In this document: positions 870 to 10,343 of the stretch, in pieces
Position numbering within the stretch: the stretch's first letter is position 1
Layout of the letters: the number at the start of each line of letters is the position of its first letter
DNA from: a virus
Lineage: Duplodnaviria; Heunggongvirae; Uroviricota; Caudoviricetes
Virus record (IMG/VR): IMGVR_UViG_3300029184_000058
Reading direction: 5' to 3' (one strand)
DNA length: 14,701 nt
Made by a program: the position numbers and the translations under genes
The notes under the pieces: model-generated
The model's input: the letters and a program-made list of their open reading frames with translations, nothing else
Databases searched by the model: none
What the model was told of the DNA's origin: nothing

Positions 870-884
870 TTGCCGGAGGCGCTT

Positions 885-1301
885 ATGGCAAAAGTATTTA
901 CACAAGAAGAGCGGGAAAAAATCAAGGGACAGGTTGTTGAGCTAGTACGCCGGAGTGGGCGCGAGACGTTACGGCAACTGGAAGCCAAGACAGGTGCGAC
1001 AAGATATCTGATGAGCGTTCTCGCCAGAGAGCTGGTTGCCAGTGGCGATGTATACAACTCTGGCTACGGGTTATTCCCGTCTGAACAGGCTCGTAAGGAC
1101 TGGCAAAATGCCCGCAAAAAACTATCTAGGGCAAAGGTGAAGAAACCATCTGTGGTTGATCCGGACCTTATCTGGTCATTACCTGACGGAGAAATACGTC
1201 GTTATGACAGGCACCAAAACATAATTTGCTGTGAGTGCCGGAAGAGCGAAGTTATGCAGCGCATACTGGCATTTTATCAGAGAAATTTTCGTTATTTATA
1301 G
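885..1301 (+). CDS. Hypothetical phage protein (N-terminal wHTH-like segment, C-terminal Cys-containing segment)
   Basis: The ORF track begins at a TTG at 870, but ATG 885 is preceded by GGAGG at 874-878 (6 nt spacing), so 885 is the preferred start. Closely coupled to the upstream gene. Confidence 0.65.
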   Translation: MAKVFTQEEREKIKGQVVELVRRSGRETLRQLEAKTGATRYLMSVLARELVASGDVYNSGYGLFPSEQARKDWQNARKKLSRAKVKKPSVVDPDLIWSLPDGEIRRYDRHQNIICCECRKSEVMQRILAFYQRNFRYL

Positions 1302-1464
1302 ACGTTACTCGATTAAAGAGCATTAGTTCAGATGTGAATTGACATTTTCACGGCACAGGATTGAGCTAGCGTGGTTGTCTGCTTTGTGTCAAAAGCAGAT
1401 ATTACCAGATTTAGACATCTATTCCCGATAGCCCTGCTCTGATGCTACACTCTGTGCTATTTTC

Positions 1465-2151
1465 ATGACCCCAATAAAAATATTTATGACTATTGCTGAT
1501 TTCAAACGGCCTAAATTGGAGCTCCCAAACGGGGCAAACAAACTACTACTGCACTCTTGCTGTGCTCCATGTTCCGGTGAAGTGATGGAGGCGCTTCAGG
1601 CCTCGGGAATCGACTATACCATCTTTTTCTACAACCCGAACATTCATCCTCAGAAAGAGTATTTAATTCGTAAGGATGAGAATATTCGCTTTGCTGAACA
1701 ACACGGCGTGCCATTTATTGATGCTGATTACGACACAGACAACTGGTTTGAACGTGCCAAAGGAATGGAATGGGAGCCCGAGAGGGGGATCCGTTGTACC
1801 ATGTGTTTTGACATGCGTTTTGAGCGGACAGCGCTGTACGCTGCTGAAAATGGTTTCAGTGTGATCAGCAGTTCACTGGGCATTTCACGCTGGAAAAATA
1901 TGCAGCAGGTTAACGACTGTGGGCGGCGAGCCGTCGCGCATTATCCGGGCATGGTGTACTGGGATTATAACTGGCGCAAGCAGGGCGGCTCGTCCCGCAT
2001 GATTGAAATCAGCAAGCGCGAAAAATTCTATCAGCAGGAATATTGTGGCTGTGTGTATTCTCTGCGCGATACCAATCTACACCGCAAATCTCAGGGACGC
2101 CCTCTTATCAAAATTGGTCAACTCCACTACGGTAAAGAAGAGAAGGAGTGA
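1465..2151 (+). CDS. queH: QueH-like epoxyqueuosine reductase homologue (DUF208 family)
   Basis: 228-aa product carries the HSCCAPCS motif near the N-terminus plus further conserved Cys pairs (RCTMCF, YCGCVY), as expected for the DUF208/QueH family. Typical phage-gene composition. Start could alternatively be ATG 1486; neither has a strong SD. Confidence 0.65.
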
Positions 2152-2159
2152 TTTTATGG

Positions 2160-2388
2160 AGCACCTTTCTTATTGATTTCATATTGGCGAGGTAGCGGGA
2201 GTTAAGTAAAATTGCTGCGGGTGCTTGAGGCTATCTGCCTCAGGCATGAACACCAAAAGGCAGATAGAGAAAAGCCCCAGTTAACATTACGCGTCCTGCA
2301 AGACGCTTAACATTAATCTGAGGCTCAATCTATGCTGAACACATGTAGGTTAGCCTCTTACGTGCCGAAAGGCAAGGAGAAGCAGGCT
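2160..2388 (+). promoter_or_regulatory. hok-type mRNA leader: structured 5' UTR with an in-frame upstream (mok-like) start at 2332; expected target region for an antisense Sok-like RNA
   Basis: Perfect 9-bp inverted repeat CTATCTGCC (2231-2239) / GGCAGATAG (2259-2267) with an inner palindrome TGCCTCAGGCA. In-frame ATG at 2332 upstream of the hok start. AAGGAG SD at 2374-2379. A 3' hairpin (2552-2573, GGCGAGGG/CCCTCGCC) follows the hok stop. The antisense RNA itself was not located. Confidence 0.35.
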
Positions 2389-2544
2389 ATGAAGCAGCAA
2401 AAGGCGATGTTAATCGCCCTGATCGTCATCTGTTTAACCGTCATAGTGACGGCACTGGTAACGAGGAAAGACCTCTGCGAGGTACGAATCCGAACCGGGC
2501 AGACGGAGGTCGCTGTCTTCACAGCTTACGAACCTGAGGAGTAA
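2389..2544 (+). CDS. hokD: Hok/Gef-family type I toxin (small membrane toxin), hokD/relF-like
   Basis: 51-aa product MKQQKAMLIALIVICLTVIVTALVTRKDLCEVRIRTGQTEVAVFTAYEPEE: single N-terminal TM helix, then the conserved RKxLCE...TGQxEVAxF Hok/Gef signature. SD AAGGAG 9 nt upstream. The hokD symbol is from memory of the E. coli Qin-prophage paralogue. Confidence 0.85.
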   Translation: MKQQKAMLIALIVICLTVIVTALVTRKDLCEVRIRTGQTEVAVFTAYEPEE

Positions 2545-4795: not shown

Positions 4796-4871
<76 letters not shown>

Positions 4872-4874
4872 TAT

Positions 4875-4949
<75 letters not shown>

Positions 4950-6894: not shown

Positions 6895-7031
6895 AATCTT
6901 AACTACAATATGATTCATTTTGATGATTGTTTCATAAGGAACAGTGAAGTAAGATCTAAGATGAGTTAAATTTTATACAGTATAATAATAATGTTGCAGC
7001 AAGGTGGTTATAATTGAAAGAATATTTAGAT

Positions 7032-8489
7032 ATGAATACATCTCATATAAGAGTTGTTACTCATATGTGTGGGTTCCTGGTTTGGCTCTATAGTCTTTCA
7101 ATGTTGCCACCAATGGTTGTAGCATTGTTTTATAAAGAAAAAAGCCTGTTCGTTTTCTTTATAACTTTTGTTATATTTTTTTGCATTGGTGGCGGAGCGT
7201 GGTATACAACTAAGAAATCTGGTATTCAATTACGTACTCGTGATGGGTTTATTATAATTGTAATGTTTTGGATTTTGTTTTCTGTTATTAGTGCATTCCC
7301 TTTATGGATTGACTCAGAACTTAATTTAACGTTTATTGATGCTCTATTTGAAGGGGTTTCTGGAATAACAACAACAGGAGCAACTGTAATTGATGATGTT
7401 AGTTCATTACCTCGGGCATATTTGTACTATCGGTCACAGTTAAATTTTATAGGTGGTTTAGGAGTTATTGTTCTGGCGGTTGCTGTATTGCCATTATTGG
7501 GTATTGGTGGTGCAAAGCTTTATCAGTCAGAAATGCCAGGGCCATTTAAGGATGACAAACTTACTCCCCGCCTGGCCGATACGTCACGGACACTTTGGAT
7601 AACTTATTCTTTATTAGGTATTGCTTGTATTGTCTGTTATAGACTTGCAGGAATGCCTTTGTTTGATGCTATTTGTCACGGGATATCCACAGTTTCGCTT
7701 GGTGGTTTCTCAACTCATAGCGAGAGTATCGGATATTTTAATAACTATTTGGTTGAGCTGGTGGCTGGTTCTTTTTCCCTGCTATCGGCTTTCAACTTCA
7801 CCCTTTGGTATATTGTTATTAGCAGGAAAACGTTAAAACCTTTAATCAGAGATATTGAACTTCGTTTCTTTCTGTTAATAGCCTTAGGGGTGATCATTGT
7901 TACCTCTTTCCAGGTCTGGCATATAGGTATGTATGACTTGCCAGGAAGTTTTATTCATTCGTTTTTTCTTGCCAGCTCCATGCTCACTGATAATGGTTTA
8001 GCTACGCAGGATTATGCAAACTGGCCCACGCACACGATAGTGTTTTTGCTGTTGTCAAGTTTCTTTGGGGGATGTATAGGTTCAACTTGTGGTGGAATTA
8101 AGTCACTTCGATTTCTTATACTTTTCAAACAAAGCAAACACGAGATAAACCAGCTTTCTCATCCCAGAGCGTTGTTGAGTGTAAATGTAGGAGGGAAGAT
8201 AGTTACAGATCGTGTAATGAGGTCTGTATGGAGTTTCTTTTTTCTTTATACTCTCTTCACGGTGTTTTTTATACTGGTGTTAAATGGTATGGGATATGAT
8301 TTTCTTACATCATTTGCAACAGTGGCTGCATGTATTAATAATATGGGATTAGGTTTTGGGGCTACTGCATCGTCATTCGGAGTGCTTAATGACATTGCAA
8401 AATATTTAATGTGCATAGCTATGATTCTTGGTCGCCTTGAAATTTATCCTGTTATTATATTGTTTTCAGGTTTTTTTTGGCGCTCCTAA
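7032..8489 (+). CDS. trkG: TrkG/TrkH-family K+ uptake membrane protein (cargo gene)
   Basis: 485 aa from ATG 7032 (an alternative TTG at 7014 has an AAGGTGG SD). Polytopic membrane protein with TrkH-family motifs (FEGVSGITTTGATV, LGIGGAKLYQSEMPGP, GGCIGSTCGGIK, MGLGFGAT). Strikingly AT-rich with A/T-ending codons, unlike its neighbours. Position right after Rz/Rz1 matches what I recall for trkG in the E. coli Rac prophage. Confidence 0.9.
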   Translation: MNTSHIRVVTHMCGFLVWLYSLSMLPPMVVALFYKEKSLFVFFITFVIFFCIGGGAWYTTKKSGIQLRTRDGFIIIVMFWILFSVISAFPLWIDSELNLTFIDALFEGVSGITTTGATVIDDVSSLPRAYLYYRSQLNFIGGLGVIVLAVAVLPLLGIGGAKLYQSEMPGPFKDDKLTPRLADTSRTLWITYSLLGIACIVCYRLAGMPLFDAICHGISTVSLGGFSTHSESIGYFNNYLVELVAGSFSLLSAFNFTLWYIVISRKTLKPLIRDIELRFFLLIALGVIIVTSFQVWHIGMYDLPGSFIHSFFLASSMLTDNGLATQDYANWPTHTIVFLLLSSFFGGCIGSTCGGIKSLRFLILFKQSKHEINQLSHPRALLSVNVGGKIVTDRVMRSVWSFFFLYTLFTVFFILVLNGMGYDFLTSFATVAACINNMGLGFGATASSFGVLNDIAKYLMCIAMILGRLEIYPVIILFSGFFWRS

Positions 8490-8626: not shown

Positions 8627-9418
8627 ATGAGCGAGAAATTAAAGATAGTCTATCGCCCATTACAAGAATTGTCACCGTATGCGCACAACGCCAGGACGCA
8701 CAGTACTGAGCAGGTGGCACAACTGGTAGAAAGTATTAAGCAATTCGGCTGGACTAATCCGGTGCTGATTGACGAAAAGGGCGAAATTATTGCGGGTCAC
8801 GGTCGTGTTATGGCGGCTGAAATGCTCAAAATGGATTCTGTTCCGGTCATTGTTCTGTCTGGCCTGACGGATGAGCAGAAAAAGGCGTACCGCTTGGCAG
8901 ATAATCGCCTACCGATGAATGCTGGCTGGGATGAAGATCTGTTGCGGATGGAGCTGTCGGACCTAATCAATGCTGATTTTGATGTCTCCCTGACAGGCTT
9001 CAGCACGACAGAAATTGATGAACTGTTGACGAATGTTTTGCCCGGTACAGGAAATAAGGAGGAGCCGTATACGACGAAAATTGATACGCCTGTTTATGAG
9101 CCGTCGGGCGGTAAACCGGATATCAGTGAACTGTACGACGATACGAAAACTCAGGAGCTGATCAGCCGGATACGTTCGGCGTCCCTTGATCCTGATATTG
9201 AGAAATTCCTCCTGTGTGCGGCAGAACGTCACACGGTGTTTAATTTCAGCAGAATTGCGGACTATTACGCTCATGCCCCCGCTGAAATTCAGTGCCTTTT
9301 CGAGGAGTCGGCGCTGGTGATCATTGATTATCAGCAGGCTATTGAAAATGGATTTGTCCGAATGACGCAGCGCATGGTGGAGATCATGCATGGCGGGGAG
9401 GAGGAGGAATATGCGTGA
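8627..9418 (+). CDS. ParB-like nuclease-domain protein (ParB/Srx fold), N-terminal ParB domain plus uncharacterised C-terminal region
   Basis: 263 aa. N-terminus has the ParB N-domain pattern (LKIVYRPLQELSPYAHNART...VESIKQFGWTNPVLIDEKGEIIAGHGRVMAA). Its stop (9416-9418) overlaps the ATG of the next gene. Possibly the intact form of a short Rac remnant (ynaK), from memory. Confidence 0.8.
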   Translation: MSEKLKIVYRPLQELSPYAHNARTHSTEQVAQLVESIKQFGWTNPVLIDEKGEIIAGHGRVMAAEMLKMDSVPVIVLSGLTDEQKKAYRLADNRLPMNAGWDEDLLRMELSDLINADFDVSLTGFSTTEIDELLTNVLPGTGNKEEPYTTKIDTPVYEPSGGKPDISELYDDTKTQELISRIRSASLDPDIEKFLLCAAERHTVFNFSRIADYYAHAPAEIQCLFEESALVIIDYQQAIENGFVRMTQRMVEIMHGGEEEEYA

Positions 9419-10343
9419 TGATTTTTGCGCCTTTATTCTGACTCACGGGCGACCGGACAAAGTTCTGACTTACCGGACGTTGCGTCGTGCTGGCTATACC
9501 GGGAAAATTTTTATCGTTGTTGATGATGAAGATAAGACACGGCATCAGTACATGGCTGAATTTGGTGAACAGGTGCTGGTGTTTTCCAAAGCCGATATCG
9601 CCAGTCGTTTTGACGAAGCCGATAATTTCGGTGACCGCCGCTCAATTTTTTACGCCCGTAATGCCTGTTTCGACCTGGCAAAACTGGTCGGGTGTAAATA
9701 CTTCATTCAGCTCGATGATGATTATCACGAGTTCCAGTTTCGGGTGGATCGCAACTATGACCAGGCCTATTTTCCGATAAGGAAACTGGATGCGATCCTT
9801 TCTGAAATGCTGGCGTACTACGAATCAATACCTGCTCTTTCCATCGCTATGTCGCAGGGCGGGGATTTTCTTGGTGACAATGGCGGCCATGCTTCGTGGG
9901 TGAAACGCAAGGCAATGAACAGCTTTATCTGTTCGGTTGATCGACCGTTCTCATTCATGGGGCGCATTAACGAGGATGTGAATACGTACACGAATCTCGG
10001 TCGCTGTGGTGAATTGTTTATGACGATCGGTGCTGTCCAGTTAGGGCAGAAACAGACGCAGAAAAACAGCGGCGGAATGACCGAGCTGTATCTGGATTCC
10101 GGAACCTACGTTAAAAGTTTTTACTCCGTCATGTATGCGCCGTCGTGCGTAAAAATCTCACTGATGGGTGCCAGCCATAAACGCATTCACCATCAGGTCA
10201 CCTGGAACAACGCCGCAGTAAAAATCCTTCACGAAAAATACAGGAAGAAGACACCCTGCATATCAATAGGGGTGACAAATGATTCCGTATTCGAAAGTCG
10301 AGTCTCTGGCAGCGTGCCGGATGACTGCACAACAAATCGCTGA
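9411..10343 (+). CDS. Uncharacterised protein with GT-A-like DxD signature (putative nucleotide-sugar or nucleotide transferase fold), coupled to the ParB-like gene
   Basis: ATG 9411 is preceded by a strong SD (GGAGGAGGAGG, 9396-9406); the track's 9390 start is in the same frame but lacks one. It has an IFIVVDDED strand, a hydrophobic strand + DDD (KYFIQLDDDY) about 60 residues later, and an ED...G segment (INEDVNTYTNLGRCGELF), reminiscent of GT-A/GT2 enzymes. No TM segments. Fold assignment is by eye. Confidence 0.6.
   Translation: MRDDFCAFILTHGRPDKVLTYRTLRRAGYTGKIFIVVDDEDKTRHQYMAEFGEQVLVFSKADIASRFDEADNFGDRRSIFYARNACFDLAKLVGCKYFIQLDDDYHEFQFRVDRNYDQAYFPIRKLDAILSEMLAYYESIPALSIAMSQGGDFLGDNGGHASWVKRKAMNSFICSVDRPFSFMGRINEDVNTYTNLGRCGELFMTIGAVQLGQKQTQKNSGGMTELYLDSGTYVKSFYSVMYAPSCVKISLMGASHKRIHHQVTWNNAAVKILHEKYRKKTPCISIGVTNDSVFESRVSGSVPDDCTTNR

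What the first reader, a model, noticed from the sequence alone, without database searches (positions are those of the whole stretch)
1465..2151. Phage-borne QueH-like (DUF208) epoxyqueuosine reductase homologue
The HSCCAPCS motif and further Cys pairs fit the QueH family, which does the last step of queuosine tRNA modification. E. coli-type hosts use QueG for that step, so a phage copy is an auxiliary gene that could alter tRNA modification. Known phage 7-deazaguanine DNA-modification clusters use other Que enzymes, not QueH, so its role here is unclear. It sits in a prophage that also carries its own tRNAs and a hok toxin immediately downstream.
Basis: partly seen in the sequence, partly recalled or inferred. 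Interest (0 to 1): 0.6.

Follow-up and report, generated by a model that had tools for sequence, protein, structure and literature searches.

The report
Prophage-carried QueH tRNA-modification enzyme
A dormant virus in the E. coli chromosome carries an intact, well-conserved copy of QueH, a vitamin-B12-independent enzyme for the last step of the tRNA base queuosine, so about one in five E. coli strains has a back-up for its own B12-dependent enzyme; the family is known, but the phage location appears to have gone unremarked.

Summary
Window 1465-2151 (+) is an open frame matching Pfam QueH end to end (E=1.9e-65). All seven family-conserved cysteines are present. The predicted fold superimposes on the Thermotoga maritima QueH crystal structure (TM 0.92, rmsd 1.3 A). 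The real start is probably ATG 1486, giving 221 aa.

The window is 100% identical to a Rac-type prophage of E. coli 042, where RefSeq already names the gene QueH. It occurs in 995 of 5,426 complete E. coli genomes, all of which also carry chromosomal queG. It is also in the isolated phage HannyBb and in 190 IMG/VR viral contigs.

It behaves as a small mobile cassette (about 1437-2155). It occupies one slot after the DUF977 gene in at least two lambdoid backbones. Purifying selection is strong (dN/dS 0.02-0.08). The closest non-Escherichia copies (89-92%) are chromosomal genes of other Enterobacteriaceae.

Most likely it is a genuine cobalamin-independent epoxyqueuosine reductase captured from a bacterial chromosome. 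It would make queuosine completion independent of B12, which E. coli cannot synthesise. It is a new member of a known kind, of moderate interest. A 2019 survey found no QueH in the viruses it analysed.

The parts
1486..2151 (+). queH coding sequence (221 aa plus stop): cobalamin-independent epoxyqueuosine reductase homologue. This is the most likely true extent.
   Evidence: Pfam QueH E=1.9e-65. RefSeq CDS WP_021554705.1 at these coordinates in E. coli 042. Conservation among alleles begins at this Met. dN/dS is 0.02-0.08. AF2 pLDDT is 95.8, and the Foldseek top hit is QueH 7lc5 with TM 0.92.
1465..1485 (+). In-frame upstream extension of the mechanical ORF (MTPIKIF). Probably untranslated leader, not coding.
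   Evidence: The equivalent codons contain a stop in GF47 and read MNLINTF in E. coli B and HannyBb, while everything from Met8 on is conserved. DNA homology to chromosomal queH genes starts at 1474-1482.
1552..1575 (+). HSCCAPCS motif: Cys32, Cys33 and Cys36 in ORF numbering (Cys25, 26 and 29 from Met 1486).
   Evidence: These align to T. maritima C9, C10 and D13. C-C-x-x-C is invariant in 37 full-length homologues. The PDB holds C9S and D13N mutants of the T. maritima enzyme.
1792..1806 (+). RCxxC motif: Arg110, Cys111 and Cys114.
   Evidence: Aligns to T. maritima R86, C87 and C90. Each Cys is in 76 of 78 residues in its alignment column, and R110 in 78 of 78. Invariant in A2.
2041..2052 (+). 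YCGC motif: Cys194 and Cys196.
   Evidence: Aligns to T. maritima C169 and C171. Invariant in A2.
1437..2155 (+). Minimal mobile queH cassette shared by different prophage backbones.
   Evidence: blastn of the window against six loci. In GF47 homology runs only from 1437 to 2155. In E. coli B and HannyBb the queH-containing block runs 1362-2157, and homology resumes at hok (2154-2631) after a stretch of about 370 nt that the window lacks.
1443..1451 (+). Candidate extended -10 promoter element TGcTACACT. A weak -35 (TTCCCG) lies at 1422-1427. This is inferred, not shown.
   Evidence: The block CTCTGATGCTACAC is invariant in six alleles from the sampled backbones, including GF47 where homology begins only there. 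The consensus promoter scan did not report it.
870..1301 (+). Upstream neighbour: DUF977 / Ren-like gene. It marks the insertion slot.
   Evidence: Pfam DUF977 E=1.1e-29 and PHROG 142. A DUF977 gene lies within 1.2 kb upstream of queH in 72 of 80 IMG/VR loci and in all six annotated loci.
2184..2544 (+). Downstream neighbour: hok/sok type I toxin-antitoxin locus. It comprises a promoter-like site at 2184-2212, the Rfam hit at 2219-2394, the mok-like ORF at 2332-2544 and hokD at 2389-2544. It is a separate module, not part of queH.
   Evidence: hok follows queH in 64 of 80 IMG/VR loci. It is replaced by an NgoMIV-type R-M system in O157:H7 Z1811 and by other genes in GF47.

Best explanation
The gene encodes a functional QueH. 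This is the iron-sulfur, cobalamin-independent epoxyqueuosine reductase that converts epoxyqueuosine (oQ) to queuosine (Q) at position 34 of tRNA-Asp, -Asn, -His and -Tyr. A lambdoid phage captured it from an Enterobacteriaceae chromosome. It now travels as a roughly 0.7-kb cargo cassette (a moron) in the region between the replication genes and the Q antiterminator of Rac-type and Qin/DicB-type prophages of E. coli and E. albertii.

Every E. coli already has QueG. QueG needs cobalamin, which E. coli cannot make de novo, and the last step of Q synthesis in E. coli is B12-dependent. The prophage copy therefore most likely lets the cell complete Q-tRNA without B12. The benefit could fall to the lysogen, to the phage during lytic growth, or to both.

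Shown here: family membership, intact catalytic-site cysteines, the QueH fold, purifying selection, mobility between prophage backbones, coexistence with queG, and chromosomal origin of the nearest relatives.

Inferred: enzymatic activity, expression from its own promoter in the lysogen, and the B12-independence benefit.
For: Family and active site:
- Pfam QueH E=1.9e-65 over the full profile.
- All seven family-conserved Cys are present, and CCAPC is the family norm (66 of 70 residues in that column).
- The AF2 model (pLDDT 95.8) matches T. maritima QueH structures at TM 0.92 and rmsd 1.3 A. The next folds are far weaker.

Maintained function:
- dN/dS is 0.02-0.08 among prophage alleles with dS up to 0.46.
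- 80 of 80 IMG/VR loci carry an intact 221-aa ORF.
- 985 of 995 E. coli genomes with a match hold at least 80% of the gene.

Phage carriage:
- The window equals the Rac-type prophage of E. coli 042 at ttcA.
- The gene sits in the same slot in Qin/DicB-type prophages of O157:H7, ST131 and E. coli B.
- It is present in the complete genome of isolated phage HannyBb.
- 190 IMG/VR viral contigs hold close relatives.

Redundancy with QueG: queG is in 5,426 of 5,426 genomes.

Cellular origin:
- The 84-92% identical copies examined in Scandinavium, Enterobacter, Erwinia and Providencia sit among housekeeping genes.
- None of the 79 non-Escherichia species-representative loci, Kluyvera included, carries the lambdoid flanks.

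Cofactor logic:
- QueG is cobalamin-dependent, and the final Q step was shown to depend on cobalamin in E. coli and Salmonella (Payne 2015, PMC4646009, citing Frey 1988).
- In S. aureus, which has both enzymes, the pair is interpreted as cofactor-dependent redundancy (PMC13443448).
- From my own recall of the Zallot 2017 abstract, not tool-verified: heterologous queH genes complement an E. coli queG mutant, and recombinant QueH carried no cobalamin.
Against: - No activity, Fe-S content or expression data exist for this protein.
- There is no Shine-Dalgarno sequence before either candidate start. The candidate promoter was not picked up by the consensus scan.
- The gene lies co-directionally in the phage early-right operon. 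It may therefore be transcribed only after induction, which would favour a lytic-phase role over a lysogen benefit.
- Whether oQ-tRNA and Q-tRNA differ functionally in E. coli is not established, so the selective advantage is unproven.
- NCBIfam has no model hit for it, although PGAP still names it QueH.
- I did not test whether Enterobacterales with chromosomal queH lack queG.
Confidence: 0.75

Rival explanations
1. The enzyme is the same, but the beneficiary is the phage. queH would be an auxiliary gene expressed only from the early-right (pR-type) transcript after induction. It would keep Q-tRNA fully matured, independently of host B12 status, while NAU/NAC-rich phage genes are translated. 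It would be silent in the lysogen.
For: The gene is co-directional with the cro-like gene, the replication genes and the Q antiterminator, with no recognisable terminator before it. An isolated, presumably viable phage retains it. No strong independent promoter was detected.
Against: The lytic cycle is short compared with tRNA turnover. Much of the tRNA pool would already carry oQ or Q, so the gain seems small. Defective prophages that can no longer grow lytically still keep an intact ORF, for example E. coli B with its IS-disrupted tail genes. Purifying selection is strong. A conserved extended -10-like element travels with the cassette.
Confidence: 0.18
2. QueH acts on phage DNA rather than tRNA, as part of a 7-deazaguanine DNA-modification pathway that protects the genome from restriction.
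For: Phages are known to use queuosine-pathway enzymes for DNA modification (PMC6884629). The prophage also carries a glycosyltransferase of a DNA-hypermodification-associated family (TAGT).
Against: No DpdA/TGT-type transglycosylase and no FolE, QueD, QueE, QueC or QueA is present in the window or in the annotated whole prophage. Without QueA there is no route to an epoxyqueuosine-type base in DNA. The surveyed deazaguanine phages lack QueH. The protein is 84-92% identical to chromosomal housekeeping QueH.
Confidence: 0.02
3. It is a functionless passenger: a hitch-hiking or decaying gene fragment with no role for phage or host.
For: Prophage nin regions collect miscellaneous cargo. K-12 lost the whole segment without obvious harm. 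No Shine-Dalgarno sequence is present.
Against: dN/dS is 0.02-0.08 at dS up to 0.46. The ORF is intact in 80 of 80 IMG/VR loci and near-complete in 985 of 995 genomes. All catalytic-site cysteines are retained. The cassette has spread to several backbones.
Confidence: 0.03
4. It has been repurposed, for example as a counter-defence factor against host systems built on QueC-like or 7-deazaguanine chemistry, or as a reductase for another epoxide substrate.
For: QueC-family proteins act in anti-phage systems such as QatABCD (PMC13639016, listed). The slot next to queH holds conflict-related cargo: hok/sok, or an R-M system in O157:H7.
Against: There is no PADLOC hit. The sequence is almost unchanged from housekeeping QueH, with no extra domains. 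No linked partner gene is conserved: the neighbours vary.
Confidence: 0.02

Closest known systems
QueH (DUF208, Pfam PF02677, COG1636), epoxyqueuosine reductase; structural reference Thermotoga maritima QueH (PDB 7LC5, 7LC7, 9DEU)
   Same: Full-length profile match, about 30% identity, and the same fold (TM 0.92, rmsd 1.3 A). Six cysteines align one-to-one, and further invariant residues are shared (N, R, E, R, K, Q). The reaction is presumably the same, oQ to Q on tRNA.
   Different: It has Cys where T. maritima has Asp13 (CCAPC versus CCAPD). Cys is the family norm and the crystallised enzyme is the outlier. It carries a basic C-terminal tail of about 25 residues shared with proteobacterial homologues. 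It is encoded on a prophage rather than a chromosome.
Chromosomal QueH of Enterobacterales (Scandinavium 92%, Kluyvera 91%, Enterobacter 89-90%, Erwinia 86%, Providencia 84%)
   Same: Near-identical length, motifs and C-terminal tail. It is clearly the same orthologous group.
   Different: The copies whose neighbours were examined (Scandinavium, Enterobacter, Erwinia, Providencia, Photorhabdus) sit among housekeeping genes such as purL-glrK, tmcA and mnmA/rluE. None of the 79 non-Escherichia species-representative loci, Kluyvera included, shows lambdoid flanks. The E. coli and E. albertii copy is flanked by DUF977 and hok in lambdoid prophages.
[quoted passage not shown]
   Same: It catalyses the same reaction, and it is present in every queH-positive E. 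coli.
   Different: It is not homologous, and it requires cobalamin (PMC4646009). The window protein shows only the QueH domain.
QueG-plus-QueH double carriers (Staphylococcus aureus; Acinetobacter baylyi ADP1, the latter from my memory of Zallot 2017)
   Same: Two non-homologous enzymes with different cofactors serve one step. This is interpreted as insurance against cofactor scarcity (PMC13443448).
   Different: As far as described, both genes are chromosomal in those organisms. Here the second enzyme is strain-variable and phage-delivered.
Phage 7-deazaguanine DNA-modification clusters (DpdA with FolE, QueD, QueE, QueC, and sometimes QueF or ArcS)
   Same: A queuosine-pathway gene carried by a phage.
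   Different: There is no DpdA and there are no preQ0 genes here. Published clusters contain no QueH. The target here is most likely tRNA, not DNA.

Membership tests
QueH / DUF208 (PF02677) | Sequence matches the family profile above the curated threshold over its full length | tested here: met
   220.6 bits against a 23.5-bit cut-off, E=1.9e-65, profile positions 1-174 of 175. No other Pfam domain was found.
QueH / DUF208 (PF02677) | Conserved cysteine set: CCxxC near the N-terminus, RCxxC in the middle, and CGC near the C-terminus | tested here: met
   C32, C33, C36, C111, C114, C194 and C196 are all present. They are invariant in a 37-sequence alignment and dominant in a 79-sequence alignment. 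Six align to T. maritima C9, C10, C87, C90, C169 and C171.
QueH / DUF208 (PF02677) | QueH three-dimensional fold | tested here: met
   AF2 pLDDT 95.8 and pTM 0.91. The top five Foldseek hits are all T. maritima QueH entries, with E down to 3.5e-14, target-normalised TM 0.90-0.92 and rmsd 1.3-2.0 A.
QueH / DUF208 (PF02677) | Binds a [4Fe-4S] cluster plus an adjacent metal, and no cobalamin | not testable with these tools
   Only the candidate ligand residues could be checked. The primary papers (Zallot 2017; Li 2021) were not held.
QueH / DUF208 (PF02677) | Converts epoxyqueuosine to queuosine in tRNA | not testable with these tools
   This needs genetics and LC-MS of tRNA nucleosides. Indirect support comes from 84-92% identity to chromosomal QueH proteins of other Enterobacterales and from strong purifying selection.
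Phage moron / auxiliary (cargo) gene | Located within a phage genome, and variably present among otherwise related phages | tested here: met
   Present in Rac-type and Qin/DicB-type prophages and in phage HannyBb. Absent from K-12 Rac. Found in 995 of 5,426 genomes. The cassette boundaries are discrete.
Phage moron / auxiliary (cargo) gene | Own promoter and terminator allowing expression from the repressed prophage | tested here: inconclusive
   A conserved extended -10-like TGcTACACT lies at 1443-1451, but the consensus scan found no promoter or terminator flanking the gene. No transcript data are available.
Phage moron / auxiliary (cargo) gene | Cellular origin of the gene | tested here: met
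   The nearest non-Escherichia homologues examined lie in non-phage chromosomal contexts. Only 1 of 80 species-representative loci (E. albertii) shares the lambdoid flanks.
Phage 7-deazaguanine DNA modification system (Dpd-type) | DpdA/TGT-family DNA transglycosylase encoded with the Que genes | tested here: not met
   No TGT or DpdA domain was found in any window ORF scanned. None is annotated in the 042 prophage genes from the integrase to the tape-measure gene.
Phage 7-deazaguanine DNA modification system (Dpd-type) | preQ0 synthesis genes (FolE, QueD, QueE, QueC) in the phage | tested here: not met
   None is present in the window or in the annotated prophage.

The most novel reading that the evidence does not exclude
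Prophage queH is a lysogenic-conversion gene that uncouples queuosine completion from vitamin B12 supply in about 18% of E. coli strains. These include EAEC 042, O157:H7, O104:H4, ST131 and the laboratory B lineage. On this reading, queH-positive and queH-negative strains such as K-12 differ in the Q/oQ state of their tRNA whenever cobalamin is scarce or BtuB-mediated uptake is lost. There could be knock-on effects on translation of NAU-rich genes, which have been linked to biofilm formation and virulence (PMC10570037). It would be the first described phage gene that finishes a host tRNA hypermodification.
Probability: 0.4. Interest if true: 0.6.

Novelty: new member of a known kind. Interest (0 to 1): 0.4.

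Why it matters
Queuosine tunes decoding of Asp, Asn, His and Tyr codons. It has been linked to stress resistance, biofilm formation and virulence. Textbook E. coli (K-12) finishes it with a B12-dependent enzyme, yet cannot make B12.

If the prophage QueH is active, a common temperate-phage cargo gene removes that dependence in many pathogenic and laboratory strains, apparently including the E. coli B lineage. tRNA modification status would then be strain- and prophage-dependent. That would extend the list of phage auxiliary genes to the final step of a host tRNA hypermodification. It would also qualify the statement of a 2019 survey of Q/G+ pathway genes in viruses, which found no QueA, QueG or QueH in the viruses it analysed.

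There is a practical annotation point as well. PHROGs lists the family (phrog_3217) as unknown function, and its profile starts after the CCAPC motif. Phage pipelines therefore call the gene 'hypothetical', as in HannyBb.

Tried and rejected
1. Primary QueH papers. I tried Zallot 2017 (PMC5495094 and DOI), Li 2021 (PMC8884141 and DOI), Miles 2011 (PMC3088584) and Frey 1988 (PMC211089). None is held. Exact ligand assignments therefore rest on alignment and on PDB entry titles only.

2. Literature on a prophage or phage QueH in E. coli. Seven full-text searches found nothing relevant. The apparent hit in the BL21/HMS174 paper was the author name 'Quehenberger'.

3. NCBIfam and PADLOC scans of the protein gave no hits.

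4. Promoter and terminator scan. It found nothing convincing flanking queH. A hairpin at 1378-1399 that I considered as a terminator is not conserved in the O157 and ST131 alleles, so I dropped it.

5. ATG 1465 and Met41 as alternative starts. I rejected 1465 from allele comparison. I rejected Met41, the start implied by the PHROG profile, because it would remove the invariant CCAPC motif.

6. A link between queH and the phage tRNAs. I rejected it because Thr(UGU) and Gly(UCC) are not Q substrates.

7. Cys-Cys distances in the AF2 model. The model coordinates are not exposed to the script environment.

8. The DNA-modification role. I rejected it for lack of DpdA, QueA and preQ0 genes.

Full report
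**Observation**

A mechanical ORF of 228 aa lies exactly at 1465-2151 on the + strand. It matches Pfam PF02677 (QueH, formerly DUF208) at E=1.9e-65. The score is 220.6 bits against a curated cut-off of 23.5, covering profile positions 1-174 of 175. No other domain was found. By sequence alone it finds the crystal-structure chains of Thermotoga maritima QueH at E=5e-22, aligned over residues 27-203. The feature is real and far beyond chance.

**Active-site residues**

I aligned the protein with the T. maritima sequence and 77 diverse representatives of 50%-identity clusters. I also aligned it with 36 full-length homologues at 36-86% identity.

Seven cysteines are conserved family-wide, and all are present here:
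- C32, C33 and C36 in HSCCAPCS;
- C111 and C114 in RCTMC;
- C194 and C196 in YCGC.

Six of them align to T. maritima C9, C10, C87, C90, C169 and C171. At the seventh position T. maritima has Asp13. The PDB holds D13N and C9S mutants, so depositors regard these positions as important. In the family, however, Cys occupies that column in 66 of 70 residues and Asp in only one. The window protein is therefore canonical and the crystallised enzyme is the variant.

An AlphaFold2 model built on the 37-sequence alignment is confident (mean pLDDT 95.8, pTM 0.91). Its five best PDB matches are all T. maritima QueH entries, with target-normalised TM 0.90-0.92 and rmsd 1.3-2.0 A. The next folds, TtuA-type adenine-nucleotide alpha-hydrolases, are many orders of magnitude weaker.

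**Start codon**

RefSeq starts the gene at ATG 1486. Allele comparison supports that choice. The seven codons between 1465 and 1485 contain a stop in strain GF47. In E. coli B and phage HannyBb they read MNLINTF instead of MTPIKIF. From Met8 onward the proteins are nearly identical.

PHROGs family 3217, annotated 'unknown function', matches at E=1.9e-138, but its profile begins at residue 41. That is an internal Met preceded by a GGGGAAG Shine-Dalgarno-like sequence (direct reading of the sequence). A protein starting there would lack the invariant CCAPC motif, so that start is an artefact of gene calling. This may explain why phage HannyBb annotates the gene as 'hypothetical protein'.

**Where it sits**

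The window is 100% identical to E. coli 042 (NC_017626.1). The 40-kb annotated context is a full-length Rac-type lambdoid prophage at the ttcA site. Its gene order is:
- intR, xisR, ralR, recT/recE, kilR, sieB, repressor and cro-like genes, ydaT/U/V;
- DUF1627, DUF977, queH, hokD, DUF1367, DUF1364, DUF1133 (Q-like antiterminator);
- tRNA-Thr, tRNA-Gly, the lysis genes, trkG, ParB-like, terminase, portal, head and tail genes (domain checks).

K-12's cryptic Rac has a deletion running from ydaW straight to the rzpR pseudogene. That deletion removes the slot. This explains why the K-12-based description of the pathway lists only QueG.

**Distribution**

- By megablast the gene is in 995 of 5,426 complete E. 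coli genomes. In 985 of them at least 80% of the gene is present, and RefSeq names it 'epoxyqueuosine reductase QueH' in every row listed.
- queG is in 5,426 of 5,426 genomes, so every carrier has both reductases.
- Among 50,697 phage records, only Escherichia phage HannyBb has a close DNA match (94.8%).
- A protein-level search finds 25 phage records, mostly short unannotated faecal contigs.
- IMG/VR holds 190 viral contigs with close relatives. In the 80 kept, the 221-aa ORF is intact in all. A DUF977 gene lies within 1.2 kb upstream in 72, hok follows in 64, and 58 have the full DUF977-queH-hok order.

**A mobile cassette**

The same gene occupies the same slot in different lambdoid backbones:
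- Rac-type prophages with recE/kilR/sieB and a DUF1367/DUF1364/DUF1133 nin region (042 and GF47);
- Qin/DicB-type prophages with dicB/ydfA-D and a DUF968/RusA/antiterminator nin region (O157:H7 Z1811, ST131, E. coli B).

The downstream neighbour varies. It is hokD in most, an NgoMIV-type restriction-modification pair in O157:H7 Z1811, and a DUF1971 gene in GF47.

DNA homology between backbones shrinks to window 1437-2155 in GF47. In E. coli B and HannyBb the queH block is 1362-2157. Within the short retained leader, the block CTCTGATGCTACAC is invariant in all six alleles. It contains an extended -10-like TGnTACACT at 1443-1451. I regard this as a candidate promoter only. The consensus scan did not report it and found no terminator around the gene. 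There is no Shine-Dalgarno sequence before ATG 1486.

**Selection and origin**

Nei-Gojobori estimates among prophage alleles give dN/dS of 0.02-0.08, with dS up to 0.46. The protein has been kept under strong constraint while resident in prophages, including defective ones such as that of E. coli B.

The nearest relatives outside Escherichia, in species-representative genomes, are Scandinavium (92%), Kluyvera (91%) and Enterobacter (89-90%). Erwinia, Providencia, Photorhabdus and many others follow at 79-87%. Only the E. albertii locus shares the lambdoid flanks. The contexts examined are ordinary chromosomal neighbourhoods:
- purL-glrK in Erwinia;
- tmcA and purC in Providencia;
- benE in Photorhabdus;
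- SDR, metallo-beta-lactamase and DUF1543 genes in Scandinavium;
- mnmA, a pseudouridine synthase and chorismate mutase in Enterobacter.

The family is large, with 4,755 representatives at 50% clustering and E<=1e-3. This proteobacterial branch evolves slowly, at 76-80% identity even in Sphingomonas and Stenotrophomonas. The inference is that a lambdoid phage captured a chromosomal queH from an Enterobacteriaceae genome.

**Mechanism**

QueH catalyses the last step of queuosine synthesis, reduction of epoxyqueuosine to queuosine on tRNA. It is a non-orthologous replacement for QueG (PMC5372724).

QueG carries two [4Fe-4S] clusters and cobalamin. The final step was shown long ago to be cobalamin-dependent in E. 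coli and Salmonella (PMC4646009, citing Frey 1988). From established knowledge, E. coli does not synthesise cobalamin de novo and depends on BtuB-mediated uptake. From my recall of the Zallot 2017 abstract (not tool-verified), heterologous queH genes complement an E. coli queG mutant, and recombinant QueH contained no cobalamin.

The best-supported explanation is therefore that the prophage gene supplies a B12-independent route to Q. A parallel exists in S. aureus, where coexisting QueG and QueH are interpreted as cofactor-dependent redundancy (PMC13443448).

Three things remain inferred:
- that this particular protein is active;
- that it is expressed in the lysogen rather than only after induction;
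- that Q versus oQ matters enough to be selected.

**Rivals**

- A purely lytic-phase role for the phage is compatible with the gene's position in the early-right operon. It fits less well with retention in defective prophages.
- A DNA-modification role is very unlikely. The prophage has no DpdA/TGT, no QueA and no preQ0 genes. The published survey of deazaguanine phages found no QueH (PMC6884629).
- A passenger or decaying gene is excluded by the selection data.
- A counter-defence or other-substrate role has no support. There is no PADLOC hit, no conserved partner gene, and no divergence from housekeeping QueH.

**Novelty**

The enzyme family, its structure and its name are known, and RefSeq already labels this gene. 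What I could not find described is its residence in temperate phages and its frequency in E. coli. Seven full-text searches found no such discussion. The 2019 survey explicitly reported no QueA, QueG or QueH in the viruses analysed.

I therefore file it as a new member of a known kind, in an unremarked context, with moderate interest. A simple LC-MS experiment on queH-positive versus K-12 strains grown without B12 would settle its significance.

Noticed in passing
window 9390-10343 (+), with 8627-9418 (+) upstream: A 317-aa protein matches Pfam TAGT (TET-associated glycosyltransferase, E=6.5e-35) and PHROG 842 ('beta-glucosyl-HMC-alpha-glucosyltransferase'). It lies directly after a ParB_N-domain protein and just before the terminase genes. 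No TET/JBP dioxygenase is present in the window, and RefSeq calls the protein hypothetical. It may be a DNA-hypermodification remnant or module in a Rac-type prophage.
   Followed up: no
window 7014-8489 (+): trkG, a TrkH-family K+ transporter (Pfam E=1.8e-143), sits as cargo between the lysis cassette and the packaging genes. It is the same gene as K-12 Rac trkG.
   Followed up: partly
window 4796-4871 and 4875-4949 (+): tRNA-Thr(UGU) and tRNA-Gly(UCC) lie downstream of the Q-like antiterminator. Neither is a queuosine substrate (those have GUN anticodons), so they are unrelated to queH. The ST131 Qin-type prophage carries tRNA-Ile and tRNA-Arg instead.
   Followed up: partly
window 2184-2544 (+): A complete hok/sok locus. 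The Rfam 'sok' model (RF01794) hits the + strand at 2219-2394, which is the hok mRNA strand. It begins just after a promoter-like TTGGCG-17-TAAAAT at 2184-2212. The mok-like ORF is at 2332-2544 and hokD at 2389-2544.
   Followed up: partly
PHROG phrog_3217 versus window 1585-2151: The PHROG profile for this family is labelled 'unknown function'. It starts at the internal Met41, after the CCAPC motif, so many phage gene calls for it appear to be N-terminally truncated. This is a fixable annotation gap. HannyBb annotates the gene as hypothetical.
   Followed up: partly
L009 9872-11882 (E. coli O157:H7 Z1811): In this Qin/DicB-type prophage the slot immediately downstream of queH holds a DNA cytosine methyltransferase plus an NgoMIV-family restriction endonuclease instead of hok. 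The slot therefore looks like a hotspot for conflict-related cargo.
   Followed up: no
L095 (K-12 MG1655 Rac, 1422752-1423782): K-12's cryptic Rac goes from ydaW directly to the rzpR pseudogene and trkG. Compared with the 042 prophage it has lost DUF977, queH, hok, the nin genes, Q, the tRNAs, the holin and the lysozyme.
   Followed up: yes
phage records CAKLQH020000001.1 and CAKLQF020000001.1 ('Acinetobacter phage MD-2021a', 328-379 kb): These records carry a 78%-identical QueH annotated as 'putative prophage protein'. Their size suggests bacterial or chimeric contigs rather than a phage. I did not examine them.
   Followed up: no
L100 (Enterobacter sp. ECC-175, 2381497-2392156): The chromosomal queH here lies next to mnmA and a pseudouridine synthase (rluE-like), so it neighbours other tRNA/rRNA-modification genes. 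A 416-aa ORF between them was not identified.
   Followed up: no
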